From the sequence record MZ189261.1: DNA of 64,000 nt; one strand, written 5' to 3'. Position numbers and translations under genes: made by a program. The stretch's first letter is position 1. Each line of letters opens with the position of its first letter. Shown one piece after another: positions 8,181-45,850 of this stretch. The notes below the pieces were generated by a model. That model saw only the letters and a program-made list of their open reading frames with translations. It searched no databases and was not told the origin of the DNA. Origin of the DNA: Escherichia phage S143_2.

Positions 8181-8345
8181 TTAGATGTAAATTATTTCAA
8201 CGTCACCTTTAGCTGCTTTATAACCTTCAGCCCAAGATACAACAGAGTTTTTATCCGAGGATTCAAATTCAGGCATTGGACTTTCACCAATATTCACACA
8301 GTATGTTTCTTCATTTTCGTCAAACCAAATAATTAAAGTAGTCAT
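8181..8345 (-). CDS. hypothetical small protein (54 aa)
   Basis: Hand-translated MTTLIIWFDENEETYCVNIGESP...; preceded by GGAG SD inside a cassette duplicated at 45783. Confidence 0.4.
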   Translation of the reverse strand: MTTLIIWFDENEETYCVNIGESPMPEFESSDKNSVVSWAEGYKAAKGDVEIIYI

Positions 8346-8386
8346 TTTGTTTACTCCACTGTAGTTGATAAGTCTATAGTATCACC
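8341..8386 (-). promoter_or_regulatory. promoter/RBS/start-codon cassette (copy A)
   Basis: 44 of 46 nt identical to 45783-45830, including the ATG and first codons. Confidence 0.6.
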
Positions 8387-8412
8387 ATCCTTGGTGCTTG
8401 TACATCATTATT

Positions 8413-8718
8413 TTATTTTTTCCAACTTAACAACTTGTAGTGTCCTTCATTCATACGTGGTTTATCCCAAGAAATACTAATATACGATTCACTGTCAATA
8501 GAAGTCGCCGGGTTTTTCTCTACCGTAAGACCTTCACTTTCCAGCCATTCAATAGTATTTGCGCATAAATCTGAAGAACACCTCATCGGAAACCGGCAAG
8601 ATTTTTCACCTTTAGCTGCAGTGTTATACATCTTTTCTAAAATACGCTTTTGCACGTTTTTAAAAATAGTTTCAGCAGATTCTTCAGATTTTTTATTCAG
8701 TTCGGTATAAAGACTCAT
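8413..8718 (-). CDS. hypothetical protein (101 aa)
   Basis: ORF with SD GAGGAAAA. Confidence 0.5.
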   Translation of the reverse strand: MSLYTELNKKSEESAETIFKNVQKRILEKMYNTAAKGEKSCRFPMRCSSDLCANTIEWLESEGLTVEKNPATSIDSESYISISWDKPRMNEGHYKLLSWKK

Positions 8719-8827
8719 AACATTTTCCTCATGTTTTTATAGGTCTATAGTAACACATCTAGGGAAGAAGTAAACAACTTTTTCAGTAAGTTATAGACCC
8801 CCTAATGGGGACCGAAGTCCCCATTCT

Positions 8828-9454
8828 TTACTTACGAGTTTTTGCATACTGAGCAGCGTCAGCAGCCAAACGACCTGCCTGACGAAGTTTTTCTTTAATC
8901 GCATCGTGAAGTGGTTGAGTATACTTCAAACCTTCGATAGTCAAATAAAGACGATAAAGGTCTGGGGTGTCAAGGTTGTTGATATGTTGGCCATTACGAA
9001 GAATATTGAATTCACGAACGAGTGAAGATGTATCAGATTCAATATCACGAACAAGCGAAGATAGTTGTTTATATTTTTTTTCCAGGCTAGAAGTATCAAA
9101 CTTAAGAGCAGGAGCTTTAGGAGTTGCTTTTACTTCCGGCTTAGGCTCAGGTTTTGCTACTGCTTTAGGGGTCGCAGGTTTAGGAGTGGTAGGAGCAGGT
9201 TTCACTTTAGGCGAACCCGATTTAGCAGAAACACCACCACTAACAATATCTTTGAATGCTTTAGAAGCTCTGTAATATTCTTTTTGGCTGGAAGTGTCGA
9301 TACCGTACATGGCTTGAACGTTTTTGAAAAACTCTGTACTAGTTTTTGTACCAGAAATAGCATCGTAAGCAGCTTGCCATTTCTCTTTTGTCATACGTAC
9401 ACCGGCTTCGGTGATTACTTCCGTTTCGGCTAAAAATTCATTAAAAGTATACAT
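8828..9454 (-). CDS. internal-protein-like capsid-targeted protein (208 aa), Pro/Lys-rich central region
   Basis: N-terminus MYTFNEFLAETE resembles the IP targeting sequence; late promoter TATAAATA 36 nt upstream. Confidence 0.5.
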   Translation of the reverse strand: MYTFNEFLAETEVITEAGVRMTKEKWQAAYDAISGTKTSTEFFKNVQAMYGIDTSSQKEYYRASKAFKDIVSGGVSAKSGSPKVKPAPTTPKPATPKAVAKPEPKPEVKATPKAPALKFDTSSLEKKYKQLSSLVRDIESDTSSLVREFNILRNGQHINNLDTPDLYRLYLTIEGLKYTQPLHDAIKEKLRQAGRLAADAAQYAKTRK

Positions 9455-9489
9455 TGATGGTCCTTAGAAAGTAGGTTTATTGTTTACTA

Positions 9490-9497
9490 TATTTATA
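9490..9497 (-). promoter_or_regulatory. T4-type late promoter TATAAATA
   Basis: Exact TATAAATA on minus strand upstream of the 8828..9454 start. Confidence 0.6.
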
Positions 9498-9498
9498 C

Positions 9499-9529
9499 AA
9501 AAAAGCCCCAACCTTTCGGAAGGGGCTAT
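9499..9529 (-). terminator. rho-independent terminator
   Basis: Minus strand AGCCCCTTCCGAAAGGTTGGGGCT followed by TTTTTTG. Confidence 0.7.
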
Positions 9530-9829
9530 ATACCTTGTCGGGGTTCCACCTACTAAGGCAAGTGTTTGTACGAAACGCCGGGGTTCGAACCCGGTTATTA
9601 AGCAGTTGACGCTACTCAATATTTTTAAAAGGCCATATCTCGACCATATCCGAACGTTCCGTCAAAAACGCTACTCGGCTTACGGCAAAGATATTTCCTC
9701 GAATCGATAATTCGGTGCGCCGTTTCTGCTGTGGTGTAAGGGGATATTAACAAATCGTAAAGATTTATTAAGACCAGTCCTTACTCAGGGAACATCAGTC
9801 CGACGACTTACCGGTAGCGACCCGGCTTC

Positions 9830-10174
9830 TTATTTTGGCATATCATCAATTTGCTCTCGACGCCGACGCCATAGATTAATCGCTTCATTAACACATTCGG
9901 CGTTTGGTATATGACGGCAATAATATAATGATTCGCGTTTCTGGAACCGATGTTGCAATGGGATTTCGTTTAAAAGGTCTTTACGGTCAAAGTATTCAAA
10001 ACTAGTTAACCCGGAACGGTTTTTAATGAACTTCCAATGACCGAATTCATTTTGAACATAGATGTAATCTGCGTGTTGGTATAACAAATTAATCAATCGG
10101 TCTGAAATAACTGTATCATGTTCGTTAAAATAAAACGTTAAATCATGAACTACTAAGTAAACATTACCTTTCAT
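9830..10174 (-). CDS. hypothetical protein (114 aa)
   Basis: Start trimmed to ATG 10174 with GAGGAAAA SD; the longer track ORF would overlap tRNA-Arg. Confidence 0.55.
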   Translation of the reverse strand: MKGNVYLVVHDLTFYFNEHDTVISDRLINLLYQHADYIYVQNEFGHWKFIKNRSGLTSFEYFDRKDLLNEIPLQHRFQKRESLYYCRHIPNAECVNEAINLWRRRREQIDDMPK

Positions 10175-10192
10175 ATTTTCCTCACTTAAAGT

Positions 10193-10269
<77 letters not shown>

Positions 10270-10273
10270 TATT

Positions 10274-10348
10274 TGGCGGACGTGATAGGATTCGAACCTA
10301 TAACCAATCGCTTAACAGGCGATCGCTCTGCCATTGAGCTACACATCC
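10274..10348 (-). tRNA. tRNA-Asn (anticodon GUU), CCA encoded
   Basis: Acceptor GGATGTG/CACGTCC, anticodon stem ATCGC/GCGAT, loop CTGTTAA, T-arm ATAGG TTCGAAT CCTAT. Confidence 0.8.
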
Positions 10349-10352
10349 AAAT

Positions 10353-10439
10353 TGGTGGGGAGTGATGGAGTCGAACCACCCGAGTCGCAATGACAATGGA
10401 TTTACAGTCCACACCGCTACCTCTACGGGATAACTCCCC
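10353..10439 (-). tRNA. tRNA-Tyr (anticodon GUA), long variable arm, CCA encoded
   Basis: Acceptor GGGGAGT/ACTCCCC, anticodon loop CTGTAAA, T-loop TTCGACT. Confidence 0.75.
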
Positions 10440-10451
10440 TAATTCATAATT

Positions 10452-10526
10452 TGGTGGCCCTGGGTGGAATTGAACCACCATCTGGCGATTATGAGTCGCT
10501 TGCTTGAACCTTCCAGCTACAGGGCC
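10452..10526 (-). tRNA. tRNA with anticodon CAU (Ile lysidine-type by T4 synteny, or Met)
   Basis: Acceptor GGCCCTG/CAGGGCC, anticodon loop CTCATAA, T-arm GGTGG TTCAATT CCACC. Confidence 0.75.
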
Positions 10527-10527
10527 T

Positions 10528-10603
10528 TGGTGCTGATTGACGGAATCGAACCGCCGACCTTCTCATTACAAGTGAGTTGCTCTACCTACTGAGCTAAATC
10601 AGC
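10528..10603 (-). tRNA. tRNA-Thr (anticodon UGU), CCA encoded
   Basis: Acceptor GCTGATT/AATCAGC, D-arm GCTC AGTAGGTA GAGC, anticodon loop CTTGTAA. Confidence 0.8.
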
Positions 10604-10608
10604 AAAAC

Positions 10609-10698
10609 TGGCGGAGGCGATAGGATTTGAACCTATGAGTCGCCGGAGCGACTGCCGGTTTTCAAGACCGGTGCATTAAACCACTCTGCCACGCCTCC
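10609..10698 (-). tRNA. tRNA-Ser (anticodon UGA), long variable arm, CCA encoded
   Basis: Acceptor GGAGGCG/CGCCTCC, anticodon stem CCGGT/ACCGG, loop CTTGAAA. Confidence 0.8.
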
Positions 10699-10700
10699 AG

Positions 10701-10774
10701 TCTCCATACAAGGATTTGAACCTTGGGCCTCCTGATCCCAAATCAGGCGCTCTACCAAACTGAGCTACACGGAG
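10701..10774 (-). tRNA. tRNA-Pro (anticodon UGG), no encoded CCA
   Basis: Acceptor CTCCGTG/TATGGAG, anticodon stem CCTGA/TCAGG, loop TTTGGGA; 2-nt spacer to tRNA-Ser. Confidence 0.8.
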
Positions 10775-10784
10775 TAAATTAAAT

Positions 10785-10858
<74 letters not shown>

Positions 10859-10863
10859 AAATT

Positions 10864-10950
10864 TGGTGCGAGAAGTGGGACTCGAACCCACAAGGAAATC
10901 ATTCCGCAGCATTTTAAGTGCTGTGCCTTTACCAATTTGGCCATTCTCGC
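10864..10950 (-). tRNA. tRNA-Leu (anticodon UAA), long variable arm, CCA encoded
   Basis: Acceptor GCGAGAA/TTCTCGC, anticodon loop CTTAAAA, T-arm GTGGG TTCGAGT CCCAC. Confidence 0.8.
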
Positions 10951-10951
10951 G

Positions 10952-11024
10952 CTGGGAATAAAGGACTCGAACCTTTGCATCCTGGAATCAAAATCCAGTG
11001 CCTTACCAACTTGGCTAATTCCCA
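10952..11024 (-). tRNA. tRNA-Gln (anticodon UUG), no encoded CCA
   Basis: Acceptor TGGGAAT/ATTCCCA (U1:A72), anticodon stem CTGGA/TCCAG, loop TTTTGAT; 1-nt spacer to tRNA-Leu. Confidence 0.8.
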
Positions 11025-11121
11025 ATTATTAACAAAGGCTCTCTAACAAGAACCCTTGATGATAGAGGGTATTAATCAGTGCGATATGAGTTAATAATAA
11101 CAAATAATTCTTAAAGCATAT

Positions 11122-11415
11122 TTACCATTTATGATAATACATATTTACGATGCAGTCAAGACCCAAAGGATTCTTGAAAATATCATATTCAAGAGGACCT
11201 TTTTCCGTTTCAATAAAGAAATCAAAATTTACTGTATTAAATTTACGGTCTTCCTTCACTAATTTAACTTGAGAAGATGAACGGTCAATGTAAACCTTTT
11301 CAACTTCAAAACATGTTAAAATGCCATAATCATCAATCAAGGCTTTAGCCGCGTCTTGATCATATTTATATCCATTTTCAATAGACGATACTTTAGCATA
11401 AAGAATCATTATCAA
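11122..11415 (-). CDS. hypothetical protein (97 aa)
   Basis: ORF; stop overlaps next gene start. Confidence 0.45.
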   Translation of the reverse strand: MIMILYAKVSSIENGYKYDQDAAKALIDDYGILTCFEVEKVYIDRSSSQVKLVKEDRKFNTVNFDFFIETEKGPLEYDIFKNPLGLDCIVNMYYHKW

Positions 11416-11792
11416 CCTTCATCAACAATAGTATGAGTATGAGCATTTACAATTTGCCACCAATCAAAGCGATTAGAACCATACATCAGGTTGTTCTCAT
11501 TTTCTTTGATAATGTCACGGAGTTCATCTTCAGTAGCGGCTTTCGCTATTAAATCAGCATATCCACCGCGAGGATAATAATTATCACCTGCAAAAAGTAA
11601 AAAGTTCGGTTTAATATTATTGAACTCTTCAAGAGTAATAACTTTTCCTGTCGGTTGAACAATCTCTACATATTTATATCCTAATTTTTGAGCAGCATCT
11701 ACTGCTTCAAGCAAAGTATCATGAGCCCATCCAATTTGACAACCTGGCTTTTCAGATGGATTAGCCTGATAATCCGCGTACACTTTATACAT
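11412..11792 (-). CDS. hypothetical protein (about 126 aa)
   Basis: Start trimmed to ATG 11792 with AAGGTG SD. Confidence 0.5.
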   Translation of the reverse strand: MYKVYADYQANPSEKPGCQIGWAHDTLLEAVDAAQKLGYKYVEIVQPTGKVITLEEFNNIKPNFLLFAGDNYYPRGGYADLIAKAATEDELRDIIKENENNLMYGSNRFDWWQIVNAHTHTIVDEG

Positions 11793-11793
11793 T

Positions 11794-11979
11794 CTATTCA
11801 CCTTTTGCAATTTTATCCATAACGATAGCGATTAAGCCGATTAGAAATGCTACTACCAATGAGATAGAATTTTCGGTTGTTGTCAGTAGTCCACAAATGA
11901 ATCCTACAAACATCGAAAAACTAAAAGCCATTGAAGCAATTACTACAGCAACATTACGAATCAGTTCAGCGCGTTTCAT
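11794..11979 (-). CDS. small hydrophobic membrane protein (61 aa)
   Basis: Two hydrophobic segments; early-promoter-like element with inverted repeat GATAGGGTA/TACCCTATC upstream at 11998-12040. Confidence 0.45.
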   Translation of the reverse strand: MKRAELIRNVAVVIASMAFSFSMFVGFICGLLTTTENSISLVVAFLIGLIAIVMDKIAKGE

Positions 11980-12048
11980 TTTATTCTCCTCGGTAGTTGA
12001 TAGGGTAATAGTATCACTACCCTATCTAAAAGTAAACGGTTTTATAAA

Positions 12049-12357
12049 CTATTTTATTCCGCGTGATGCAATCGTATTCTGCCGTTTAACGCCAGTTTGT
12101 TTAAAGTTATGATTGTCAAGTTGATCGGTACGAGCAACTCCGAATGATGATTTAATCTTAGCTTTAGATCCTTTAGTTATAGAAATAAACATCTCGGGAG
12201 CCCCTTTCTTAAAGTCCGAAGCAATTACTTCAACACCGTTCTTAGCAAGTGACCTCAGAATTGCTTCCGCGTACTCATCATCAAGACCCGCTTGAGTATG
12301 AATAACGAATGTCTTTGGTGCAGCCGCTTCATTGATAAATTCTTTATAGGTTTTCAT
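12049..12357 (-). CDS. internal-protein-like capsid-targeted protein (102 aa)
   Basis: N-terminus MKTYKEFINEA. Confidence 0.6.
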   Translation of the reverse strand: MKTYKEFINEAAAPKTFVIHTQAGLDDEYAEAILRSLAKNGVEVIASDFKKGAPEMFISITKGSKAKIKSSFGVARTDQLDNHNFKQTGVKRQNTIASRGIK

Positions 12358-12417
12358 TTTATTTTCCTAATTAATTTTGATGAGATAATAATACCACAAC
12401 CCTATTTAAAAGTAAAC

Positions 12418-12690
12418 TCATTTTAAATAAATTGCGTATTTTTTATAACCCGCCGACTCATGACGAAGACCCTTATCATTAGCAAAACGCTCAATGTTGT
12501 TAATTTGATTCTGGTCAAGTTCAGAGATGTCAAACACGAAAAAGTTACGTTTGTTACCAACTGTTACATAGTCAGTTAAATCAATATCATATAGGTAATT
12601 GATGTCAGCAATCAAAGTCTTGACAGCTTTGCTAATTTTTACTTTTTCGTTAAAAGTAGCTTCATTGATAAATTCTTTATAGGTTTTCAT
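12418..12690 (-). CDS. internal-protein-like capsid-targeted protein (90 aa)
   Basis: N-terminus MKTYKEFINEA; in the position of T4 ipI next to 57B. Confidence 0.6.
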   Translation of the reverse strand: MKTYKEFINEATFNEKVKISKAVKTLIADINYLYDIDLTDYVTVGNKRNFFVFDISELDQNQINNIERFANDKGLRHESAGYKKYAIYLK

Positions 12691-12713
12691 TTTATTTACT
12701 TGAGGTCGTTTAT

Positions 12714-12756
12714 TTGATAGGACTACTATAACATAGTCCTACAGGTGTGTAAACTG
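12714..12756 (-). promoter_or_regulatory. early-promoter-like cassette with stem-loop (copy 3)
   Basis: gataggactactataacatagtcctac...gtaaac; minus strand GTTTAC -35 then TAGGACTA/TAGTCCTA stem-loop. Confidence 0.6.
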
Positions 12757-12767
12757 TTTTGTAAAAA

Positions 12768-13453
<686 letters not shown>

Positions 13454-13457
13454 TTTA

Positions 13458-14192
13458 TTACCTTAAGATTGTTTCAATTTTAGAATAAAGCTCTTCTAAA
13501 GAGCCGTCGTTTGTAATAACTAAATCGCCTTCTTCAATAGGCAACCCAGCTTCTGTAATATGTTTATCGGTGGATTCCGTACCAGAGCGAACCACATGAA
13601 TAACTGTAGCACCCATCGCTCTAGCGGTTTCCATTTCATGGACTTGGCGGGTATCGGTCACAACGTAGTAATCGAAATCGCTTCCAATATAATCCATATA
13701 GTTTAATGCAAAAAGTTTAACCCAATACATACGGTCAAATAAATTAACGACAACATCCGTACCGAGGGCTTGCATAAGACGGCGGATTGACCATGTGTCG
13801 TTGATATTATTTATAGCTTCGCGCAGGGCTTCATATGGTTTAATATCTAGATACGAATATCCACCTTCTAACGATGATAATACTTTAACATTATTAATTG
13901 GTAAATATTGACTTTGCAAATAAATTAGCGCTTCTTCCAATAATTCAATAACATCCAACTTATTGAGATTTAATGGTGTTTCACGGTCGTATCCAATGCC
14001 TTCAAAGTATTCGTATTTCAACTCTGTGAATACATCAGGATTTTCAGCATGCCTACGTTCCCAGGCTATTGCTAGAGCGTCTTTAATCGGATATGCCAAT
14101 TGATATTTTACTGATTTAAAGTTTGAATTGATGTAATCAGCAGTAGTATCTTTGCCACTACGTTTGATGCCACTTAAAAAGATTAGCTCCAT
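13458..14192 (-). CDS. 1: gp1 deoxynucleoside monophosphate kinase
   Basis: MELIFLSGIKRSGKDTTADY... P-loop; length matches T4 gp1. Confidence 0.9.
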   Translation of the reverse strand: MELIFLSGIKRSGKDTTADYINSNFKSVKYQLAYPIKDALAIAWERRHAENPDVFTELKYEYFEGIGYDRETPLNLNKLDVIELLEEALIYLQSQYLPINNVKVLSSLEGGYSYLDIKPYEALREAINNINDTWSIRRLMQALGTDVVVNLFDRMYWVKLFALNYMDYIGSDFDYYVVTDTRQVHEMETARAMGATVIHVVRSGTESTDKHITEAGLPIEEGDLVITNDGSLEELYSKIETILR

Positions 14193-14245
14193 AGGTTTTC
14201 CTCATATAATTTATGAGTGATTATAACATACGGAGCTAGAAGCGA

Positions 14246-14830
14246 TTAACGCAAGGAAGGGTGCCTAGAAATGGATTTAGATTCGACAGCTTGGAGTGGT
14301 TGTTGAGATACAATGACTTCGCCATCCTTTTCTATCGTCATATACGCGTAGTGAATAGTTGCTACGCACGTAACGGCAGGATCAGAATCTTCAGTGTAAC
14401 TAAATTCAATTTCGCTCAAATCAGAAATCCATGGTTTATAGAAATTTGCCGTCAAAACGACTTCAGTCTTATTGTTGTTTAAAATGTGCAAAGTAACAAA
14501 CTCAGGACCATCGGAGTGGGCCGTATTATGCCCGGTTATATAGTTATTAGTGCTGAGCATCCATTTATACATGTTCATCCAGGACGTCATGTCTTCATCA
14601 ACTATAAATCGTACAATAAAAGGGTCATATTCAAATGTAGTGCCTGCGCGCATTGCACGTCCTAACCCCATTGTGCCTGTCACAGTTTCAACAACAGGAA
14701 TTCTCACACCAGGTAGTGGAGCCGTTTGGGCATTGAGCACAAAACCTGAAGTTCGTGTACTATCCGGGATATCCACAACAAAGTTTGTTATATTTGTTTG
14801 GTTAAAAATCTGTCTCGCTGGACGAGTCAT
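14246..14830 (-). CDS. 3: gp3 tail completion / sheath stabiliser
   Basis: Synteny 1-3-2-4; start trimmed to ATG 14830 (track start was GTG). Confidence 0.7.
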   Translation of the reverse strand: MTRPARQIFNQTNITNFVVDIPDSTRTSGFVLNAQTAPLPGVRIPVVETVTGTMGLGRAMRAGTTFEYDPFIVRFIVDEDMTSWMNMYKWMLSTNNYITGHNTAHSDGPEFVTLHILNNNKTEVVLTANFYKPWISDLSEIEFSYTEDSDPAVTCVATIHYAYMTIEKDGEVIVSQQPLQAVESKSISRHPSLR

Positions 14831-14932
14831 AAGCACCTCAAAAACGCTTTAATAAAAATGCAGTATAATGGTTTTAGGTCTCTTCCATTAATCCGGTTCA
14901 ACAGAATACCAGAAGAACGGAAGAGAATAGAA

Positions 14933-15754: not shown

Positions 15755-15756
15755 AA

Positions 15757-19095: not shown

Positions 19096-19097
19096 AA

Positions 19098-25468: not shown

Positions 25469-25493
25469 GGGAGCCTTCGGGCTCCCATTTTTG
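25469..25493 (+). terminator. rho-independent terminator after gene 8
   Basis: GGGAGCCTTCGGGCTCCC followed by ATTTTTG. Confidence 0.75.
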
Positions 25494-25497
25494 TATC

Positions 25498-25505
25498 TAT
25501 AAATA
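25498..25505 (+). promoter_or_regulatory. late promoter TATAAATA upstream of gene 9
   Basis: Exact octamer 33 nt before the ATG. Confidence 0.7.
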
Positions 25506-37476: not shown

Positions 37477-39459
37477 ATGGCACTTCTCTCTCCGGGCGTT
37501 GAGCTCAAAGAAACTACCGTACAGAGTACTGTAGTTAATAACTCCACTGGTACTGCTGCCCTGGCTGGAAAATTCCAATGGGGACCGGCATTCCAGATTA
37601 AACAAATCACTGATGAAGTTGCATTAGTTGATATGTTTGGTACTCCTAATACGGATACAGCAGATTATTTCATGTCTGCTATGAACTTCCTTCAATATGG
37701 TAATGACCTTCGTGTTGTACGCGCAGTTGATCGTGATACTGCTAAGAACTCATCTCCTGTAGCAGGCAATATTGAATTCACAATCTCTGCTACCGGTAGT
37801 AACTATGCAGTCGGTGATAAAATTATCGTTAAGTATTTGACCGAAACTGTTGAAGCAGATGGTTATGTCACTTCAGTTGATGTTGACGGTAAAATTCTTA
37901 ACATTTATATCCCAACTGGTAAAATTATTGCTCGTGCAAAAGAAATTAATGAATATCCGGCATTGGGTTCTAATTGGACGGCCGAAGTTGCCAGTTCTTC
38001 TTCTGGACTTTCTGGCGTTATTACAATTGGTTCTATCGTAACCGATTCGGGTATTCTGTTAACTGAAGTTGAAACTTCTGAAGAAGCTATTACTTCTCTA
38101 ACTTTCCAAGAATCTATTAAAAAATATGGTGTCCCAGGCGTAGTTGCTCTTTATCCTGGTGAACTTGGCGACCAGCTTGAAATTGAAATCGTATCTAAAG
38201 CAGACTATGACAAAGGTGCTTCAGCCCAGTTAAAAATTTATCCTGATGGTGGTACTCGTGCATCTACTGCTAAAGCAGTGTTTGGATATGGCCCACAAAC
38301 TGATGACCAATATGCAATTATTGTTCGTCGTAACGATGCTGTAGTTCAGAGCGTAATTCTTTCTACTAAGCGTGGTGAACGCGATATTTATGGTAGTAAT
38401 ATCTTTATTGATGATTTCTTTGCTAAAGGCGCAAGCAATTATATTTTCGCTACTTCACAAGGTTGGCCAAAAGGTTTCTCTGGCGTAATCAAACTGGGTG
38501 GCGGCTTATCATCTAATGAAACGGTTGACGCTGGTGATTTAATGGAAGCTTGGGATTTGTTTGCTGACCGTGAATCTGTTAATGCGCAGTTGTTTATTGC
38601 TGGTTCTTGTGCAGGTGAATCTTTAGAAGTTGCTTCTACAGTTCAGAAACATGTTGTAGCAATTGGTGATTCTCGCCAAGATTGTTTGGTTCTTTGCTCA
38701 CCGCCACGTGCAACTATAGTCGGTATTCCTGTTAATCGTGCAGTTGATAATCTGGTTGATTGGCGTACTGCGTCAGGAACTTACACTGATAATAACTTTA
38801 ATGTAAGTTCTACTTATGCTGCTATTGACGGTAACTATAAATATCAATATGACAAATATAATGACGTGAATCGTTGGGTTCCATTAGCTGCTGATATTGC
38901 TGGTCTTTGTGCTCGCACAGACAATATTTCTCAGCCTTGGATGTCTCCTGCCGGTTATAACCGTGGACAAATTCTTAACGTTATTAAGCTTGCAATTGAA
39001 ACTCGCCAAGCGCAGCGTGATCGTTTGTATCAGGAAGCTATTAACCCTGTTACTGGTACAGGTGGTGATGGGTATGTTCTGTACGGTGATAAAACTGCCA
39101 CTTCTGTTCCTTCACCATTTGACCGTATTAACGTTCGTCGTTTGTTCAATATGGTTAAAACGAACATTGGTTCAGCATCTAAATATCGCCTGTTTGAATT
39201 GAACAACGCATTTACCCGTTCTTCTTTCCGTACAGAGACTTCTCAATATCTACAGGGTATTAAAGCTCTTGGTGGTGTATATAACTTTAAAGTTGTTTGT
39301 GATACTACCAATAACACCCCAGCAGTTATCGACCGTAATGAATTTGTAGCTACTTTCTACTTACAACCTGCCCGCTCGATAAATTATATTACGTTGAACT
39401 TTGTAGCAACAGCAACTGGTGCCGATTTCGACGAACTAATTGGTACTGTAAGTGGCTAA
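37477..39459 (+). CDS. 18: gp18 tail sheath
   Basis: 660 aa (T4 659 aa). Confidence 0.93.
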   Translation: MALLSPGVELKETTVQSTVVNNSTGTAALAGKFQWGPAFQIKQITDEVALVDMFGTPNTDTADYFMSAMNFLQYGNDLRVVRAVDRDTAKNSSPVAGNIEFTISATGSNYAVGDKIIVKYLTETVEADGYVTSVDVDGKILNIYIPTGKIIARAKEINEYPALGSNWTAEVASSSSGLSGVITIGSIVTDSGILLTEVETSEEAITSLTFQESIKKYGVPGVVALYPGELGDQLEIEIVSKADYDKGASAQLKIYPDGGTRASTAKAVFGYGPQTDDQYAIIVRRNDAVVQSVILSTKRGERDIYGSNIFIDDFFAKGASNYIFATSQGWPKGFSGVIKLGGGLSSNETVDAGDLMEAWDLFADRESVNAQLFIAGSCAGESLEVASTVQKHVVAIGDSRQDCLVLCSPPRATIVGIPVNRAVDNLVDWRTASGTYTDNNFNVSSTYAAIDGNYKYQYDKYNDVNRWVPLAADIAGLCARTDNISQPWMSPAGYNRGQILNVIKLAIETRQAQRDRLYQEAINPVTGTGGDGYVLYGDKTATSVPSPFDRINVRRLFNMVKTNIGSASKYRLFELNNAFTRSSFRTETSQYLQGIKALGGVYNFKVVCDTTNNTPAVIDRNEFVATFYLQPARSINYITLNFVATATGADFDELIGTVSG

Positions 39460-39491
39460 TAAGACGCCTGATGGGCTATTTCGGTAGCCCA

Positions 39492-39499
39492 TATAAATA
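39492..39499 (+). promoter_or_regulatory. late promoter TATAAATA upstream of gene 19, preceded by hairpin GGGCTA..TAGCCC
   Basis: Exact octamer. Confidence 0.7.
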
Positions 39500-39572
39500 T
39501 AACTATATCGTTTAAAAATTAATTCTATGGGCATCTGGTTAATCCTAAGCCCATATTACTACAGAGGCTAAT

Positions 39573-40064
39573 ATGTTTGTAGATGACGTAACTCGCGCCT
39601 TCGAATCAGGTGATTTCGCTCGCCCTAACCTGTTCGAAGTAGAAATCTCTTATCTTGGGCAAAACTTTAGCTTCCAGTGTCGTGCTACGGCTCTTCCTGC
39701 TGCGATCGTTGAAAAGGTTCCTGTTTCTTATATGAACCGTAAAATTAACGTGGCTGGTGATCGTACATTCGATGATTGGACTATTACAGTAATGAACGAT
39801 GATGCTCATAGCATTCGTCAGAAATTTGTTGATTGGCAAGGTATTGCAGCAGGACAAGGTAATGAAATTACCGGTGGTAAACCTGCCGAATATAAAAAGA
39901 CTGCTATCGTTCGTCAATTTGCTCGTGATGCTAAAACGGTCACTAAAGAAGTTGAAATTGTTGGCTTGTGGCCTACTAACGTTGGTGAAGTATCTCTTGA
40001 TTGGGACAGCAATAACGAGATTGAAACGTTCGAAGTAACTCTTGCTCTTGATTGGTGGGAATAA
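39573..40064 (+). CDS. 19: gp19 tail tube
   Basis: 163 aa as T4 gp19. Confidence 0.93.
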   Translation: MFVDDVTRAFESGDFARPNLFEVEISYLGQNFSFQCRATALPAAIVEKVPVSYMNRKINVAGDRTFDDWTITVMNDDAHSIRQKFVDWQGIAAGQGNEITGGKPAEYKKTAIVRQFARDAKTVTKEVEIVGLWPTNVGEVSLDWDSNNEIETFEVTLALDWWE

Positions 40065-40112
40065 TCTGGTTGGGGAGAAATCCCCAGCTTCCCGTGATGA
40101 CGGAGAAGTCCA

Positions 40113-40120
40113 TATAAATA
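40113..40120 (+). promoter_or_regulatory. late promoter TATAAATA upstream of gene 20, preceded by hairpin TGGGGA..TCCCCA
   Basis: Exact octamer. Confidence 0.7.
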
Positions 40121-40148
40121 TAACTATAATTCCCATTCGGAGAATACA

Positions 40149-41720
40149 ATGAAATTTAATATCTTAAGTTTGTTTGCTCCATGGGCAAAAATGGACGAAC
40201 GTGATTACAAAGACCAAGAAAAAGAAAATTTAGAATCTATCACCACACCAAAATTAGACGACGGCGCTAAAGAATACGAAGTATCTGAAAATGAAGCACA
40301 GCAAACATATAATGCTATGTTTCAGAGAATGTTCGGTAGTCAAGAACCAGGGCTCAAATCAACCCGTGAATTAATCGATACGTATCGAAATTTGATGACG
40401 AACTATGAAGTGGATAACGCGGTCTCTGAAATAGTTTCCGATGCTATCGTGTATGAAGATGATACAGAAGTCGTTTCTATAAATTTAGACAACACAAAAT
40501 TTAGTCCAAATATCAAATCAATGATGTTGGATGAATTTAATGAAGTGTTAAATCATTTATCTTTCCAACGTAAAGGTTCAGATCATTTTAGACGTTGGTA
40601 TGTGGATTCTCGAATTTTCTTCCATAAAATTATTGACCCTAAACGCCCTAAAGAAGGTATTAAAGAGCTTCGTCGTTTAGACCCACGTCAAGTTCAATAT
40701 GTCCGTGAAGTTATTACAACCACTGAAGCCGGTGTTAAAATAGTCAAGGGTTATAAAGAATATTTCATTTATGACACGTCACACGAATCTTATGCTTGTG
40801 ATGGTCGCATATATGAAGCTGGCACAAAAATAAAAATCCCTAAAGCCGCGATTGTTTACGCCCATTCTGGTTTAGTTGATTGTTGTGGTAAAAATATCAT
40901 CGGTTATTTGCATCGGGCTATTAAGCCAGCGAACCAATTAAAACTTCTTGAAGATGCTGTCGTAATTTATCGTATTACTCGTGCTCCTGATCGTCGTGTA
41001 TGGTACGTTGATACAGGTAATATGCCTTCAAGAAAAGCAGCAGAACATATGCAACATGTTATGAATACGATGAAAAACCGTATTGCATATGATGCTACTA
41101 CAGGCAAGATTAAAAACCAGCAGCATATTATGTCGATGACCGAAGATTATTGGTTACAACGACGTGATGGTAAAGCAGTAACAGAAGTTGACACATTACC
41201 GGGTGCAGATAATACCGGAAATATGGAAGATGTACGTTGGTTCCGTAATGCGCTTTATATGGCTTTACGTATTCCTATTACCCGTATTCCAAGTGACCAA
41301 GGTGGTATACAGTTTGATGCTGGTACTTCTATTACACGAGATGAATTGTCATTTGGTAAATTTATTCGTGAGCTGCAACATAAATTTGAAGAGATATTCC
41401 TAGACCCGCTTAAAACTAATTTAATTCTTAAAGGAATTATTACAGAAGATGAGTGGAATGATGAAATAAATAATATTAAGATAAAATTTCATCGGGATAG
41501 TTATTTCTCGGAATTAAAGGATGCTGAGATTCTGGAGCGTCGCATTAATATGCTTCAGATGGCCGAACCATTTATTGGTAAATATATTTCTCACAGAACA
41601 GCTATGAAAGATATTCTTCAGATGTCTGACGAGGAAATTGAACAAGAGGCTAAGCAAATTGAAGAAGAGTCGAAAGAGGCTCGTTTCCAAGACCCCGACC
41701 AAGAACAAGAGGATTTTTAA
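40149..41720 (+). CDS. 20: gp20 portal vertex protein
   Basis: 523 aa (T4 524 aa). Confidence 0.93.
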
Positions 41721-41956
41721 TGGACGATTTAATTCAAGCTATTAAATCAAACGACCTCGTTGCTACTCGAAAGTTTTTTGAAAGTGCAATGGCAGAAAAA
41801 ACGGTTCGTTTGATTGAAGCACGCAAAGCAGAAATCGCGTCTCAATTTTTGATTGAAGGCGAAGAACCTGAAGAAGAAAAGAAAGCTAAAGCTTCGGAAG
41901 ACGACGCTGATGAAGGCGATGACGACGAAGACGAAGATGATGAGGACGATGAATAA
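41720..41956 (+). CDS. 67: gp67 prohead core protein
   Basis: 78 aa with acidic C-terminus [11 protein letters not shown]. Confidence 0.85.
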
Positions 41957-42381
41957 TGTATCTTATCCCTGAATCTTATGAATTGGTACTCGAAAATGTC
42001 GAAGCACTTATTCCTGAAGCACAGGGCCGAATCGATGCATTGTCTTCTGCTCTCGATATTGACGATATAAATACTATTATCGAGAACATGCTTGAAACTG
42101 AAACGGATTTAGCTGTTGCAATGGCTTCCATTATTAATGAAGAACAGTTAAATGAGTTTATTGTTAAACATGTTTCTTCTCGTGGTGAAGTCACCCGCAC
42201 TAAAGACCGTAAAACTCGTGAACGTAACGCGTTCCAAACAACCGGTCTTTCTAAAGCAAAACGTAGACAAATCGCTCGTAAGGTCGTTAAAGCTAAAAAA
42301 GCTAACCCTTCAGGCCAAGTTAAAGGCTTGCGTAAGCGTAAAAAAGCTCTTAAACGTCGTAAAGCATTAGGATTAAGCTAA
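41956..42381 (+). CDS. 68: gp68 prohead core protein
   Basis: 141 aa as T4 gp68. Confidence 0.85.
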
Positions 42382-43028
42382 TGAATAAACCCGAGTTACT
42401 TATTGAAACTTGGGGTCAACCCGGTGAGATTATTGATGGCGTTCCAATGTTGGAATCTCATGATGGAAAAGATTCTGGCTTAAAACCAGGGCTTTATATA
42501 GAAGGTATTTTTCTTCAGGCAGAGGTTGTTAACCGAAATAAACGTTTATATCCTAAACGCGTTTTGGAAAAAGCAGTAAGTGACTATATTAAAGAACAAG
42601 TCGCAACCAAACAAGCCCTTGGAGAATTAAACCATCCACCTCGTGCAAATGTTGACCCCATGCAAGCCGCTATCATTATTGAAGATATGTGGTGGAAAGG
42701 AAACGATGTATATGGACGTGCTAGAATTATTGAAGGCGACCATGGTCCCGGCGATAAATTAGCTGCTAATATACGAGCTGGTTGGATTCCAGGTGTTTCC
42801 TCTCGTGGTCTTGGTTCTTTAACCGACACCAATAAAGGGTACCGTATCGTGAACGAAGGATTTAAATTAACCGTCGGCGTAGATGCCGTATGGGGACCTT
42901 CCGCTCCAGATGCTTGGGTTACTCCTAAACAAATATCAGAATCAGAATCAGAAAATTCGGTGGAAACCGCCAAAAACAGTGCTGATGAAGCATTTAAAGC
43001 TCTCGCAGAGAGTTTAAAAGCATTATAA
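42381..43028 (+). CDS. 21: gp21 prohead core protease
   Basis: 215 aa (T4 212 aa). Confidence 0.9.
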   Translation: MNKPELLIETWGQPGEIIDGVPMLESHDGKDSGLKPGLYIEGIFLQAEVVNRNKRLYPKRVLEKAVSDYIKEQVATKQALGELNHPPRANVDPMQAAIIIEDMWWKGNDVYGRARIIEGDHGPGDKLAANIRAGWIPGVSSRGLGSLTDTNKGYRIVNEGFKLTVGVDAVWGPSAPDAWVTPKQISESESENSVETAKNSADEAFKALAESLKAL

Positions 43029-43031
43029 ATA
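43024..43031 (+). promoter_or_regulatory. late promoter TATAAATA upstream of gene 22
   Basis: Exact octamer. Confidence 0.65.
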
Positions 43032-43061
43032 ATAATGTAATCTAAACCACAGGACACTAAA

Positions 43062-43874
43062 ATGATCAAAGAACAACTTTTGAAAGAAGCTCAGAACATC
43101 GAGACTTCAGTTGCTCTTAATAGTGTTTTCGAATCAGTAGAACTGTCTCCGGACGTTAAAGCTAATTTCAGCACTGTATTCGAAGCCACCGTTAAGCAGG
43201 AAGCAGTCAAACTGGCTGAATCTCATATCAAAGCCATCGCCGAAAAGGCCGAAGAAGAAGTTGAAAAGGCTAAAGAAGATGCTGAAGAGAAAGCTGATAA
43301 AAAATTGGCTGAACAAGCTTCTAAATTCCTAGACCATCTTGCAAAAGAATGGCTCGCAGAAAACCAAATCGCAGTTGATAAAGGCATTAAAGCTGATTTG
43401 TTCGAATCCATGCTTGGTGGTCTGAAAGAACTGTTTGTTGAACATAACGTTGTTGTTCCAGAAGAATCTGTAGATGTTGTAGCAGAAATGGAAGAAGAGC
43501 TGGCCGAACATAAAGAAGAAACCGCTCGTTTGTTCGAAGAAGTTACCAAACGTGATGCATATATCAATTACGTTCAGCGTGAAACCGCTATTAATGAAAG
43601 CGTAAAAGACCTGACTGAATCTCAGAAAGAAAAAGTTATTGGCCTGGTTGAAGGTATGGATTATTCTGACGCATTTGGTACTAAGTTAACTGCTATTGTA
43701 GAAATGGTTAAAGGTTCTACTAAAGAAGAAGCCGCTATCACCGAAAGTATAAATACAGTTGACAATGACGCTGCCGGTCTTAATTTTGTTGCCGAAGCAG
43801 TTGACACTACCACAACTCAGGTAGAACAGAATTCTAATGTAAGTTTATATGCGAAAGTCGCATCTCGTTTCTAA
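43062..43874 (+). CDS. 22: gp22 prohead core scaffold
   Basis: 270 aa acidic helical protein (T4 269 aa). Confidence 0.9.
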   Translation: MIKEQLLKEAQNIETSVALNSVFESVELSPDVKANFSTVFEATVKQEAVKLAESHIKAIAEKAEEEVEKAKEDAEEKADKKLAEQASKFLDHLAKEWLAENQIAVDKGIKADLFESMLGGLKELFVEHNVVVPEESVDVVAEMEEELAEHKEETARLFEEVTKRDAYINYVQRETAINESVKDLTESQKEKVIGLVEGMDYSDAFGTKLTAIVEMVKGSTKEEAAITESINTVDNDAAGLNFVAEAVDTTTTQVEQNSNVSLYAKVASRF

Positions 43875-43891
43875 TTTAAAGGTTAACACAA

Positions 43892-45460
43892 ATGACTACT
43901 ATCAAAACTAAAGCTCAGCTCGTAGACAAATGGAAAGAACTGCTGGAAGGCGAAGGCCTGCCGGAAATCGCTAATAGCAAGCAGGCTATTATCGCTAAAA
44001 TCTTCGAAAACCAGGAAAAAGATTTCGAAGTATCCCCTGAATATAAAGACGAGAAAATCGCTCAGGCATTTGGTTCTTTCTTGACCGAAGCTGAAATTGG
44101 TGGTGACCACGGTTATAATGCTCAGAACATCGCAGCAGGTCAAACCTCTGGTGCAGTAACCCAGATTGGGCCAGCAGTTATGGGTATGGTTCGTCGTGCT
44201 ATTCCTAATCTGATCGCTTTTGATATTTGTGGTGTTCAGCCTATGAACAGCCCGACCGGTCAGGTATTTGCTCTCCGTGCAGTATATGGTAAAGACCCTA
44301 TCGCTGCTGGCGCTAAAGAAGCTTTCCATCCGATGTATGCCCCGGACGCGATGTTCTCTGGTCAGGGTGCTGCTAAGAAATTCCCAGCTCTGGCTGCTGG
44401 CACACAAACCACAGCAGGTGATATCTATACTCACTTCTTCCAGGACACTGGTACTGTGTATTTGCAGGCTTCTGTTCAAGTAACAATTGATGCTGGCGCT
44501 ACCGATGCAACTAAATTAGATGCTGAAATTAAGAAACAAATGGAAGCCGGTGCACTGGTAGAAATCGCTGAAGGTATGGCCACTTCTATCGCTGAACTTC
44601 AGGAAGGCTTCAATGGTTCTACCGACAACCCGTGGAACGAAATGGGCTTCCGTATCGACAAACAAGTTATTGAAGCTAAATCTCGTCAGCTGAAAGCAGC
44701 TTACTCCATCGAATTGGCACAAGACCTCCGTGCAGTACACGGTATGGATGCTGATGCTGAACTGAGTGGTATTCTTGCTACTGAAATTATGCTGGAAATC
44801 AACCGTGAAGTTGTTGACTGGATTAACTACTCCGCTCAGGTTGGTAAATCTGGTATGACTAATATCGTTGGTTCTAAAGCTGGTGTATTTGACTTCCAGG
44901 ACCCGATTGATATCCGTGGTGCTCGTTGGGCCGGTGAAAGCTTTAAAGCTCTGTTGTTCCAGATTGATAAAGAAGCAGTTGAAATTGCTCGTCAAACCGG
45001 TCGTGGTGAAGGTAACTTCATTATCGCTTCCCGTAACGTAGTTAACGTACTGGCTTCAGTTGATACTGGTATTTCTTATGCTGCACAGGGTCTGGCTTCT
45101 GGTTTTAATACCGACACTACTAAGTCTGTATTTGCCGGTGTACTTGGTGGTAAATACCGCGTATACATCGACCAGTATGCTAAACAGGATTACTTCACCG
45201 TTGGTTACAAAGGCGCTAACGAAATGGATGCAGGTATTTACTATGCTCCTTACGTTGCACTTACCCCACTGCGTGGTTCCGATCCTAAGAACTTCCAGCC
45301 GGTAATGGGCTTTAAAACTCGTTACGGTATCGGTGTTAACCCGTTTGCTGAAAGTTCCCTGCAGGCTCCAGGTGCTCGCATCCAGTCCGGTATGCCGTCT
45401 ATCCTGAACAGCCTTGGTAAGAACGCTTACTTTAGACGCGTCTACGTTAAAGGAATTTAA
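43892..45460 (+). CDS. 23: gp23 major capsid protein
   Basis: 522 aa (T4 521 aa). Confidence 0.95.
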   Translation: MTTIKTKAQLVDKWKELLEGEGLPEIANSKQAIIAKIFENQEKDFEVSPEYKDEKIAQAFGSFLTEAEIGGDHGYNAQNIAAGQTSGAVTQIGPAVMGMVRRAIPNLIAFDICGVQPMNSPTGQVFALRAVYGKDPIAAGAKEAFHPMYAPDAMFSGQGAAKKFPALAAGTQTTAGDIYTHFFQDTGTVYLQASVQVTIDAGATDATKLDAEIKKQMEAGALVEIAEGMATSIAELQEGFNGSTDNPWNEMGFRIDKQVIEAKSRQLKAAYSIELAQDLRAVHGMDADAELSGILATEIMLEINREVVDWINYSAQVGKSGMTNIVGSKAGVFDFQDPIDIRGARWAGESFKALLFQIDKEAVEIARQTGRGEGNFIIASRNVVNVLASVDTGISYAAQGLASGFNTDTTKSVFAGVLGGKYRVYIDQYAKQDYFTVGYKGANEMDAGIYYAPYVALTPLRGSDPKNFQPVMGFKTRYGIGVNPFAESSLQAPGARIQSGMPSILNSLGKNAYFRRVYVKGI

Positions 45461-45489
45461 TGCTTTAACGTTAAAATACATAACCTTAT

Positions 45490-45515
45490 GGGAGACTTCG
45501 GTCTCCCATTTTTGG
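45490..45515 (+). terminator. rho-independent terminator after gene 23
   Basis: GGGAGACTTCGGTCTCCC followed by ATTTTTGG. Confidence 0.8.
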
Positions 45516-45517
45516 TT

Positions 45518-45787
45518 TTATTTCTGTGCAATTTCGATGTAAGTTTTCAAAATATTTTGCCAATTAGGCATACCTTCTTGGACATATGCCGGAGAACCGT
45601 CTTTGTTTTTGAATGATGCAAGTTTATCAGTGGCCCAATAACCTTTAGCTCGAGCTTCAGAATCAACTTTCATCCATACTTTGTTGAAGGCGTTACCATT
45701 AACTTTTGCACCATATTTTTCTACCAACTTAACTGCTTCAGCTTCTAGAACTTTTAAAGTATCTCGTAAGAAACGTGCTTTAGTCAT
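45518..45787 (-). CDS. hypothetical protein (89 aa), antisense to the head gene cluster
   Basis: ORF with GGAG SD; occupies the 23-24 interval where T4 has segD as I recall. Confidence 0.55.
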   Translation of the reverse strand: MTKARFLRDTLKVLEAEAVKLVEKYGAKVNGNAFNKVWMKVDSEARAKGYWATDKLASFKNKDGSPAYVQEGMPNWQNILKTYIEIAQK

Positions 45788-45850
45788 TTTGTTTACTCCT
45801 CTGTAGTTGATAAGTTTATAGTATCACATACCAAATACGTTGTAAACAAT
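45783..45850 (-). promoter_or_regulatory. promoter/RBS/start cassette (copy B) with GTTTAC -35 box
   Basis: 44 of 46 nt identical to 8341-8386; -35 GTTTAC on minus strand at 45843-45848. Confidence 0.6.

What the first reader, a model, noticed from the sequence alone, without database searches (positions are those of the whole stretch)
8341..45850. A 46-bp promoter/RBS/start-codon cassette duplicated 37 kb apart
8341-8386 and 45783-45830 share gtcattttgtttactcc.ctgtagttgataagt.tatagtatcac at 44 of 46 positions, including the SD, the ATG and the first two codons (Met-Thr) of two unrelated small genes (8181..8345 and 45518..45787). The second copy lies inside the late head-gene cluster, antisense, in the 23-24 interval where T4 carries segD as I recall.
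Basis: seen in the sequence. Interest (0 to 1): 0.6.

Follow-up and report, generated by a model that had tools for sequence, protein, structure and literature searches.

The report
Shared early-promoter/leader cassette, two phage genes
Two unrelated small early genes of an RB69-like T-even phage carry an almost identical 47-bp "-10 box / leader / ribosome-binding site / start codon" unit, copied between them by short-patch recombination; this is a clear but ordinary new example of the promoter-cassette shuffling already described in T4-type phages.

Summary
The repeat is real. The sense strand is minus: GTGATACTATA[G/A]ACTTATCAACTACAG[T/A]GGAGTAAACAAAATGACTA. This is a TG-extended -10 of a T4-type early promoter, a ~24-nt unstructured leader, a GGAG Shine-Dalgarno, ATG, ACT and one more base. 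The -35 boxes lie outside the repeat and differ.

The window is a Mosigvirus. About 50 early promoter/leader units per genome share a looser consensus (median 61% identity, 99th percentile 81%). This pair is the top outlier (46/47 in HX01).

Relatives show recombination footprints at this cassette:
- Orthologues of each gene in other genera keep the same slot and -35 but carry different leaders.
- Phage pEK20 has an RB3-like spacer and coding sequence with this leader patch between them.
- Phage SF has the cassette fused to the next gene, with ORF54 deleted at the shared AAAATG.

This fits PeSL-type modular shuffling (Arbiol 2010; Comeau 2014), although neither copy has the upstream stem-loop. 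It is not a good RegB site, not a structured RNA and not a mobile-gene insertion. Verdict: a new member of a known kind, of modest interest.

The parts
8339..8385 (-). Copy A of the 47-nt cassette (TG-extended -10, leader, SD, ATG, ACT, A)
   Evidence: 45/47 identical to copy B
45781..45827 (-). Copy B of the 47-nt cassette
8376..8384 (-). Copy A extended -10 (TGaTACTAT)
   Evidence: sequence
8399..8404 (-). Copy A -35 (TGTACA, 17-nt spacer). Outside the repeat. Conserved in RB69, pEK20, SF and in Tequatrovirus RB3/LYE-01
   Evidence: falls below the simple sigma-70 scan threshold
45818..45826 (-). Copy B extended -10 (TGaTACTAT)
45841..45846 (-). Copy B -35 (TTTACA, 17-nt spacer). Outside the repeat. 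Conserved in T4, JS98 and VR7
8369..8369 (-). Inferred transcription start of copy A (the A of ATCAAC, 7 nt after the -10)
   Evidence: inference from spacing and from the RB69 early-promoter logo description in PMC1524935; not measured
45811..45811 (-). Inferred transcription start of copy B
   Evidence: inference, as for copy A
8354..8357 (-). Copy A Shine-Dalgarno GGAG, 8 nt before the ATG
   Evidence: sequence
45796..45799 (-). Copy B Shine-Dalgarno GGAG
   Evidence: sequence
8181..8345 (-). ORF54 (54 aa; phrog_5461; = RB69ORF145c), in the e.7 slot of the e-tRNA hyperplastic region
45518..45787 (-). ORF89 (89 aa; phrog_6003), antisense between genes 23 and 24
8163..8191 (-). Next early promoter (TTTACA-17-TATAGT) driving the Frd.3-like gene 7907..8134. 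It marks the 3' boundary of the ORF54 module and is the partner in the SF deletion
45854..45861 (+). Late promoter TATAAATA of gene 24, back-to-back with the copy B -35 (7 nt apart). The arrangement is conserved in four genera
45488..45509 (+). Terminator hairpin between gene 23 and the 3' end of ORF89
   Evidence: annotated on both strands in SA79RD

Best explanation
Each copy is the downstream half of a T-even immediate-early expression unit read on the minus strand. It comprises a TG-extended -10 (TGaTACTAT) used by host sigma-70 RNA polymerase, an inferred start at the A of ATCAAC, a ~24-nt unstructured leader, a GGAG Shine-Dalgarno 8 nt before the ATG, and the first four coding bases after the ATG. 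The near-identity of the two copies does not come from the general early-promoter consensus. It comes from short-patch homologous recombination (gene conversion or double crossover) between dispersed promoter/leader cassettes, using the conserved -10/+1 box on the left and the A-rich SD-ATG box on the right as homology. The event predates the radiation of Mosigvirus, and the ancestral copies were probably 47/47 identical. Its effect is that two unrelated small accessory genes are plugged into the same transcription and translation initiation signals. One gene sits in the hyperplastic e-tRNA region and the other antisense inside the late head-gene block. This is the PeSL-type modular shuffling of T4-type phages, here with promoter units that lack the stem-loop. 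Shown: the anatomy, the outlier status and the mosaic breakpoints in relatives. Inferred: the transcription start, early timing, the recombination mechanism and its direction.
For: Anatomy; the promoter is annotated in SA79RD. Outlier status: 44/46 vs a next best of 37/46 in the window; 46/47 vs a 99th percentile of 81% among 1,326 pairs in HX01. Sharp edges: upstream of -14 the copies are 44% identical, which is the family background, and the proteins are unrelated. Locus B: orthologues in JS98 and VR7 (35% aa) sit in the same antisense 23-24 slot with the same -35/late-promoter junction, but have different leaders and codon 2 = AAC instead of ACT. T4 has segD behind the same -35. Locus A: RB3 and LYE-01 have the same ORF (98% aa), the same odd -35, spacer and 'agacttatcaa', but a different 3' leader. 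pEK20 has the RB3-like spacer and RB3-like coding sites with the window-type leader patch in between, and its A and B copies differ only at the RB3-diagnostic -13 base. SF has the copy-A promoter and leader fused to the Frd.3-like gene, with ORF54 (211 bp) deleted at the shared AAAATG. RB69 copy A reads CAGAGGAG like copy B, so the two window mismatches are later drift. RB69's ORF89 is frameshifted and its cassette has three extra substitutions. Orthologous genes carry non-orthologous leader types. Literature: PeSL units include the SD and ATG in T-even phages (PMC4122927). Mini-circle crossovers were mapped between the -10 and the ATG and between the SD and the -10, and T4 recombination needs <50 bp of homology (PMC2839356).
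Against: There are no transcript data, so the promoters, start sites and early timing rest on consensus. Copy A's -35 (TGTACA) is weak and the simple scan misses it. The direction of transfer is unresolved: codon 2 and the AGACTT box point to A-type into B, while the pEK20 mosaic shows patches entering locus A alleles. Neither copy has the upstream stem-loop that defines a full PeSL. With only about 47 nt and a constrained sequence space, selection could add to the identity. The leader-type matches between genera (about 82-83%) are only at the 99th percentile of background, so they are suggestive rather than proof.
Confidence: 0.7

Rival explanations
1. No copying took place. Both genes converged independently on the optimal T-even early-promoter / initial-transcribed / SD / start consensus under selection for strong early expression.
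For: All ~50 early units share -10, (T/C)ATCAA, SD and ATG at fixed spacing (median 61-67% identity). The first 21 nt of the block recur before frd.3, cef, motA and denV in several genera.
Against: The pair sits far outside the family distribution (98% vs a 99th percentile of 81%). Identity covers positions with no known constraint, plus codon 2 and the first base of codon 3. Orthologues in other genera work with quite different leaders. pEK20 shows a discrete patch with breakpoints.
Confidence: 0.1
2. The identity is maintained because the leader is an operator for a trans-acting phage factor (RegB/S1 cleavage, RegA repression or an unknown factor), so that the two genes are co-regulated after transcription.
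For: The SD is GGAG followed by an A-rich tract, and regB's own leader in HX01 is 83-85% identical to the cassette. RegA sites are unstructured, A+U-rich and lie between the SD and the AUG (PMC3014915), and the leader is unstructured.
Against: The RegB/S1 consensus is GGAGRAYARAA and C is never seen at position 9. The cassette is GGAGUAAACAA (U5, A7, C9), like the poorly cut T4 denV site (PMC1702504; T4 denV sequence). RB69 RegA SELEX gives AAUAAUAAUAAnA, which the spacer UAAACAAA matches only loosely. No Rfam family matches. In RB69 the cassette drifts once ORF89 is broken, as expected for a plain expression signal.
Confidence: 0.1
3. Copy B marks a recent insertion of a mobile gene cassette (ORF89 with its own promoter) into the 23-24 interval, analogous to segD in T4.
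For: The slot holds a homing endonuclease in T4. ORF89 is dispensable, being frameshifted in RB69.
Against: ORF89 orthologues at only ~35% aa identity occupy the same slot and orientation in Dhakavirus and Gaprivervirus, so the gene is an old resident. It has no endonuclease domain. Identity to copy A is confined to 47 nt and does not include the -35 or the gene.
Confidence: 0.03

Closest known systems
PeSL (promoter-early stem-loop) regulatory cassettes of T4-type phages (Arbiol et al. 2010, PMC2839356; Comeau et al. 2014, PMC4122927)
   Same: Compact unit of an AT-rich tract, a T-even early promoter (TTTACW-N17-TAYWAT), an SD and the start codon of a small accessory ORF. Dispersed similar copies act as recombination sites. 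ORF deletion or replacement breakpoints fall between the -10 and the ATG. Found mostly in hyperplastic regions and, within the core, next to plastic non-essential genes.
   Different: Neither copy has the upstream stem-loop/terminator. Copy B is back-to-back with a late promoter inside the head-gene block. What is seen here is replacement of a short patch of the leader itself (-14 to +6 of the CDS) between loci 37 kb apart, not excision or insertion between neighbouring PeSLs. PeSLs have not been described for Mosigvirus in the papers found.
T4-type early promoters (consensus GTTTAC-N14-gtggTAttaT, cited from Miller et al. 2003 in a relative's annotation; RB69 set of 57 predicted early promoters, Nolan et al. 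2006, PMC1524935)
   Same: GTTTAC-like -35, 17-nt spacing, TG/GT-rich extended -10, A-rich upstream region, placement directly 5' of small early ORFs including novel ones.
   Different: Copy A has TGTACA at -35. The conservation of interest lies downstream of the -10 (leader/SD/start), which the promoter consensus does not cover.
T4 denV promoter/leader and the RegB-resistant class of early mRNAs (Durand et al. 2006, PMC1702504)
   Same: The T4 denV leader is about 83-87% identical to the cassette (ATCAACTACAGGAG...AAAATGACT) and likewise has C at position 9 of the would-be RegB/S1 site.
   Different: It drives a different gene in a different genus. RegB resistance of the Mosigvirus cassette is inferred, not tested.
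segD slot between genes 23 and 24 of T4
   Same: An antisense accessory gene driven by an early promoter whose -35 abuts the gene 24 late promoter.
   Different: In T4 the gene is a GIY-YIG homing endonuclease. Here it is an 89-aa protein of unknown function with no endonuclease domain.

Membership tests
T4-type early (sigma-70) promoter | -35 hexamer GTTTAC/TTTACW placed 17+/-1 nt upstream of the -10 | tested here: met
   Copy B: (G)TTTACA, 17 nt, TACTAT. Copy A: TGTACA, 17 nt, TACTAT. That is 5/6 to TTTACA but below the simple scan threshold, so copy A meets the feature only weakly.
T4-type early (sigma-70) promoter | -10 TAnnnT with a TG/GT-rich extension | tested here: met
   Both copies have GTGATACTAT.
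T4-type early (sigma-70) promoter | A/T-rich UP-like region upstream of the -35 | tested here: met
   84% A+T in the 25 nt upstream of each -35.
T4-type early (sigma-70) promoter | Transcription starts within the first minutes of infection, independently of MotA and gp55 | not testable with these tools
   No transcript data; needs 5'-RACE or RNA-seq.
PeSL cassette | Early promoter with SD and start codon of the downstream ORF in one compact unit | tested here: met
   -10 to ATG = 30 nt in both copies.
PeSL cassette | Stem-loop (terminator) immediately upstream of the promoter | tested here: not met
   The best perfect stem in the 70 nt upstream of each -35 is 3-4 bp. No terminator-like site upstream of either.
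PeSL cassette | Breakpoints of ORF gain, loss or replacement between close relatives fall inside the cassette | tested here: met
   The SF deletion of ORF54 joins cassette A to the next cassette at AAAATG. pEK20 vs RB3 shows a leader patch. The ORF54 module shared with RB3 ends at the -35 of the next promoter. Counter-example: the WFL6982 2.9-kb deletion is not promoter-bounded.
PeSL cassette | Formation of mini-circles by recombination between flanking cassettes | not testable with these tools
   Needs inverse PCR on infected cells.
RegB/S1 cleavage site | 11-nt single-stranded GGAGRAYARAA, with C excluded at position 9 | tested here: not met
   The cassette reads GGAGUAAACAA: U5, A7, C9 (vs PMC1702504). 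It is single-stranded. Cleavage itself was not tested.
Seg-type homing-endonuclease gene cassette | GIY-YIG (or HNH) nuclease domain in the inserted ORF | tested here: not met
   Pfam gives only a sub-threshold DUF4859 hit for ORF89. No PDB relative.

The most novel reading that the evidence does not exclude
T-even phages may hold a small repertoire of portable leader types that are swapped between early genes by short-patch recombination, independently of both the -35/spacer and the coding sequence. Three types are seen here: I, ATCAACTACAG-GGAGTAAACAAA (ORF54, ORF89, roughly regB and T4 denV); II, ATCAAAACAAATAC...GGAGAAATAA (motA pair, RB3 ORF54); III, ATCAAAACATGAGGAAAA... Swapping a type would reset the post-transcriptional class of a gene. 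Type I carries C at position 9 of the RegB/S1 site, like the RegB-resistant T4 denV mRNA, whereas types II and III lack C residues downstream of the GGA motif. A patch swap would then convert a short-lived early mRNA into a RegB-resistant, longer-expressed one. That would make the duplication a functional re-wiring event rather than a neutral footprint.
Probability: 0.15. Interest if true: 0.5.

Novelty: new member of a known kind. Interest (0 to 1): 0.3.

Why it matters
The finding documents, with base-level breakpoints in four natural genomes, that the -10-to-start segment of T-even early expression units is itself an exchangeable module. This extends the PeSL shuffling model to RB69-like phages, to units without a stem-loop, and to a slot inside the conserved head-gene block. 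In practice it warns annotators that identical 5' ends do not imply related genes. It also gives phage engineers a naturally validated 47-bp early-expression plug. It does not reveal a new kind of system.

Tried and rejected
1. IMG/VR scans for the exact leader and for relatives of both ORFs gave 1, 3 and 0 loci, too few to use, so GenBank phage genomes were used instead.
2. RegB target hypothesis: rejected on the published consensus because of C at position 9.
3. RegA operator: only a loose resemblance and untestable here.
4. Structured leader or known RNA family: fold z-scores are 0.5 and 0.2, and Rfam finds only tRNAs.
5. Upstream PeSL stem-loop: absent.
6. Mobile-gene insertion at 23-24: rejected because of syntenic, diverged orthologues.
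7. Ongoing concerted evolution: not supported. A and B drift independently (window, HX01, RB69, pEK20, SF), and WFL6982 keeps B without A.
8. The WFL6982 deletion junction was checked for promoter involvement: it runs from a terminator hairpin into a coding region, so it is not cassette-mediated.
9. PDB searches for both proteins found nothing significant.
10. A third full copy was sought in HX01: none. Only partial relatives were found (regB 84%, cef, denV, motA).
Full report
OBSERVATION. The two stretches exist as described. A pattern search allowing 3 mismatches finds only these two sites, with none in 100 dinucleotide-preserving shuffles, and the repeat finder reports them as a 96% pair (family D5). 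Identity ends abruptly on both sides.

ANATOMY. The sense strand is minus: GTGATACTATA[G/A]ACTTATCAACTACAG[T/A]GGAGTAAACAAAATGACTA. It reads as follows:
- a TG-extended -10 (TGaTACTAT);
- six bases, then ATCAAC, whose A is the inferred +1 (Nolan et al. describe C-rich -3 to -1 in RB69 early promoters; PMC1524935);
- a leader of about 24 nt;
- GGAG 8 nt before the ATG;
- ATG ACT A.

The -35 boxes lie outside the repeat, 17 nt upstream: TTTACA at 45841-45846 for copy B and TGTACA at 8399-8404 for copy A (missed by the simple scan). Both have 84% A+T upstream. Upstream of -14 the copies are only 44% identical, which is the background among early promoters. The leaders are unstructured (z = 0.5 and 0.2), and no Rfam family overlaps them. 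The ORFs they serve, 8181..8345 (54 aa, phrog_5461) and 45518..45787 (89 aa, phrog_6003), are real conserved families and unrelated to each other.

SOURCE AND BACKGROUND FAMILY. The window is a Mosigvirus, an RB69-like T-even phage. A relative's GenBank record already annotates copy B as a T4-type early promoter. The window holds about 12 minus-strand early units with the same layout: -35, -10, (T/C)ATCAA, SD and ATG about 30 nt after the -10. Their median pairwise identity from -10 to start is 67%. The A/B pair is at 96% and the next best at 80%. In the complete genome of HX01 there are 52 such units. Among 1,326 pairs the median is 61% and the 99th percentile 81%. A/B is first at 46/47, and second is a motA-region pair at 51/56 that also shares ATG plus 4 nt. 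So near-identical cassette pairs recur, and this one is the extreme case. The first ~21 nt of the block (TGATACTATAGAC[T/C]TATCAAC) are generic and stand before frd.3, cef, motA, denV and others in several genera. The 3' half (CTACAGnGGAGTAAACAAAATGACTA) is what A and B specifically share.

LOCUS B. ORF89 is >95% conserved in about 120 Mosigvirus records and has ~35%-identical homologues in Dhakavirus (JS98) and Gaprivervirus (VR7). These lie in the same antisense slot between genes 23 and 24. In all of them, and in T4 where the slot holds segD, the early -35 sits back-to-back with the gene 24 late promoter (tatttataaag.tt.tttaca). From the spacer onward the sequences differ. The JS98 and VR7 orthologues start ATG AAC AA(G/A), whereas the Mosigvirus gene starts ATG ACT AAA. 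The gene is therefore an old resident, and its -10/leader/start in Mosigvirus looks overwritten.

LOCUS A. ORF54 (= RB69ORF145c) lies in the e-tRNA hyperplastic region. It is 94-98% identical at the protein level in many Tequatroviruses (T2, RB3 and others), where it occupies the e.7 slot. Window and RB3 are homologous from about -40 of the ORF54 promoter to the -35 of the next promoter, with unrelated flanks. They share the odd TGTACA, the spacer, 'agacttatcaa' and ATGACTACT. The 3' leader, however, is CTACAGTGGAGTAAACA in the window and AACAAATACAGAAAACGGAGAAAT in RB3.

RECOMBINATION FOOTPRINTS.
- pEK20 (Mosigvirus) carries the RB3-diagnostic bases in the spacer and in the ORF54 coding sequence, but the window-type leader patch between them. 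Its copies A and B differ only at the RB3-diagnostic -13 base.
- In phage SF the copy-A promoter and leader is joined directly to the Frd.3-like gene (MATVSIDVV...). ORF54 is removed exactly one module (211 bp) at the shared AAAATG.
- In RB69 copy A reads CAGAGGAG, as copy B does everywhere, so the ancestral copies were probably identical over all 47 nt. RB69's ORF89 is frameshifted and its cassette has three extra substitutions.
- WFL6982 lacks window 6591-9493, which includes copy A, but keeps copy B. That deletion is not promoter-bounded.
- Leaders of orthologous genes in other genera best match non-orthologous HX01 units: RB3 ORF54 matches motA units at 82%, T4 denV matches A/B/regB at 83%, and the JS98 ORF89 orthologue matches two other genes at 83%.

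MECHANISM. The best-supported reading is short-patch homologous recombination between dispersed early promoter/leader cassettes. The conserved -10/+1 box and the A-rich SD-ATG box serve as flanking homology, and the event occurred before the Mosigvirus radiation. This matches the PeSL model. In T-even phages PeSLs are described as an AT-rich tract, a stem-loop, TTTACW-N17-TAYWAT, an SD and a start codon (PMC4122927). In RB49/phi1, mini-circle crossovers were mapped between the -10 and the ATG and between the SD and the -10, and T4 recombination needs <50 bp of homology (PMC2839356). The direction is unresolved. Codon 2 (AAC to ACT) and the AGACTT box, which locus A shares with RB3, suggest an A-type donor overwrote B. 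The pEK20 mosaic shows patches also entering locus A alleles. There is no sign of ongoing concerted evolution, because the copies drift independently.

ALTERNATIVES. Convergence on a consensus cannot explain 98% identity against an 81% 99th percentile, the shared codon 2, or discrete breakpoints. A RegB site is unlikely: the RegB/S1 consensus is GGAGRAYARAA with C excluded at position 9, while the cassette is GGAGUAAACAA, like the poorly cut T4 denV site (PMC1702504). The RB69 RegA SELEX motif AAUAAUAAUAAnA is only loosely matched (PMC3014915). A mobile-gene insertion at 23-24 is contradicted by the syntenic, diverged orthologues and by the absence of a nuclease domain.

MEMBERSHIP AND NOVELTY. 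Both copies meet the sequence criteria of T4-type early promoters, although copy A is weak at -35. They work like PeSLs and show PeSL-type breakpoints, but they fail the stem-loop criterion, so they are 'Pe' units without the 'SL'. I found no paper describing PeSLs in RB69 or Mosigvirus. The finding is a new, well-resolved member of a known kind. Interest is modest (0.3). The most novel reading not excluded is that exchangeable leader types set the RegB sensitivity class of early mRNAs (probability about 0.15).

Noticed in passing
window minus strand, -10 hexamers starting at 12013, 3780, 12730, 5075 (arms e.g. 12018-12026/11999-12007): Perfect inverted repeats bracket the -10 hexamer of a subset of early promoters, e.g. 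GATAGGGTA-gtgaTACTAT-TACCCTATC. The 5' arm ends about 4 nt before the -10 and the 3' arm starts right after it. In HX01, 10 of 52 early units have >=7 bp (up to 12 bp), against 1.5% in shuffled-flank controls. Copies A and B lack this. No T-run follows, so it is not a canonical terminator. It may relate to the AGNA-loop-TCNT stems reported for PST/T4 PeSLs, but those are described as lying upstream of the promoter. Function unknown (DNA-level operator, or a hairpin in read-through RNA).
   Followed up: partly
window 12326-12364 and 12659-12697 (also 171-209, 496-534): A 39-nt stretch is 100% identical between two tandem small genes 333 bp apart. It covers the SD spacer, the ATG and the first ~10 codons (MKTYKEFINEA...), and looser copies occur at 171 and 496 (family D3). 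From my own recollection, this resembles the shared N-terminal capsid-targeting sequence of T4 internal proteins, the locus where IP shuffling was first noted.
   Followed up: no
HX01 (L005) -10 at record 111757 and 112079; ATGs at 111802 and 112122 (motA): A second near-identical promoter/leader/start pair (51/56, both ATGTCTA) lies 322 bp apart in front of motA and the small ORF upstream of it. The RB3 version of the ORF54 leader belongs to this type.
   Followed up: partly
window 10193-11024, minus strand: A cluster of 10 tRNA genes (Arg, Asn, Tyr, Met, Thr, Ser, Pro, Gly, Leu, Gln) resembles the Tequatrovirus RB3 array. RB69 annotates only 2 tRNAs and WFL6982 only 3 at this position. tRNA content is therefore highly variable within the genus.
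   Followed up: partly
L018 (RB69) 47292-47532, = record 109291-109531: In RB69 the ORF89 orthologue is broken by frameshifts into two annotated mini-ORFs (ORF188c/189c) and its promoter/leader carries three private substitutions. It looks like a decaying accessory gene in the type strain.
   Followed up: yes
window 6591-9493 vs L020 (WFL6982): A 2.9-kb block (e.5, e.6, Frd.3-like, ORF54 and two more ORFs) is absent from WFL6982. The junction runs from just after a terminator hairpin (agccccttccgaaaggttggggcttttt) into a coding region.
   Followed up: yes
window 7907-8134, minus strand: A Frd.3-family gene (Pfam Phage_FRD3, E = 1e-38) sits in the e-tRNA region, in addition to the frd.3 next to gene 32 in RB69. 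It is absent from the corresponding RB3 interval.
   Followed up: partly
window 25469-25500 and 45490-45521: Two similar GC-stem hairpins with a TTCG loop followed by a T-run (GGGAGCCTTCGGGCTCCCATTTTT and GGGAGACTTCGGTCTCCCATTTTT) are 84% identical over 32 nt (family D16). The same design follows gene 32 in RB69 and gene 23 in T4.
   Followed up: no
window 41854-41949 and 52456-52485: Short acidic-codon repeats (GAAGACGAAGATGA-like) lie in coding sequence (family D6). This is probably a low-complexity Asp/Glu-rich protein segment and was not examined.
   Followed up: no
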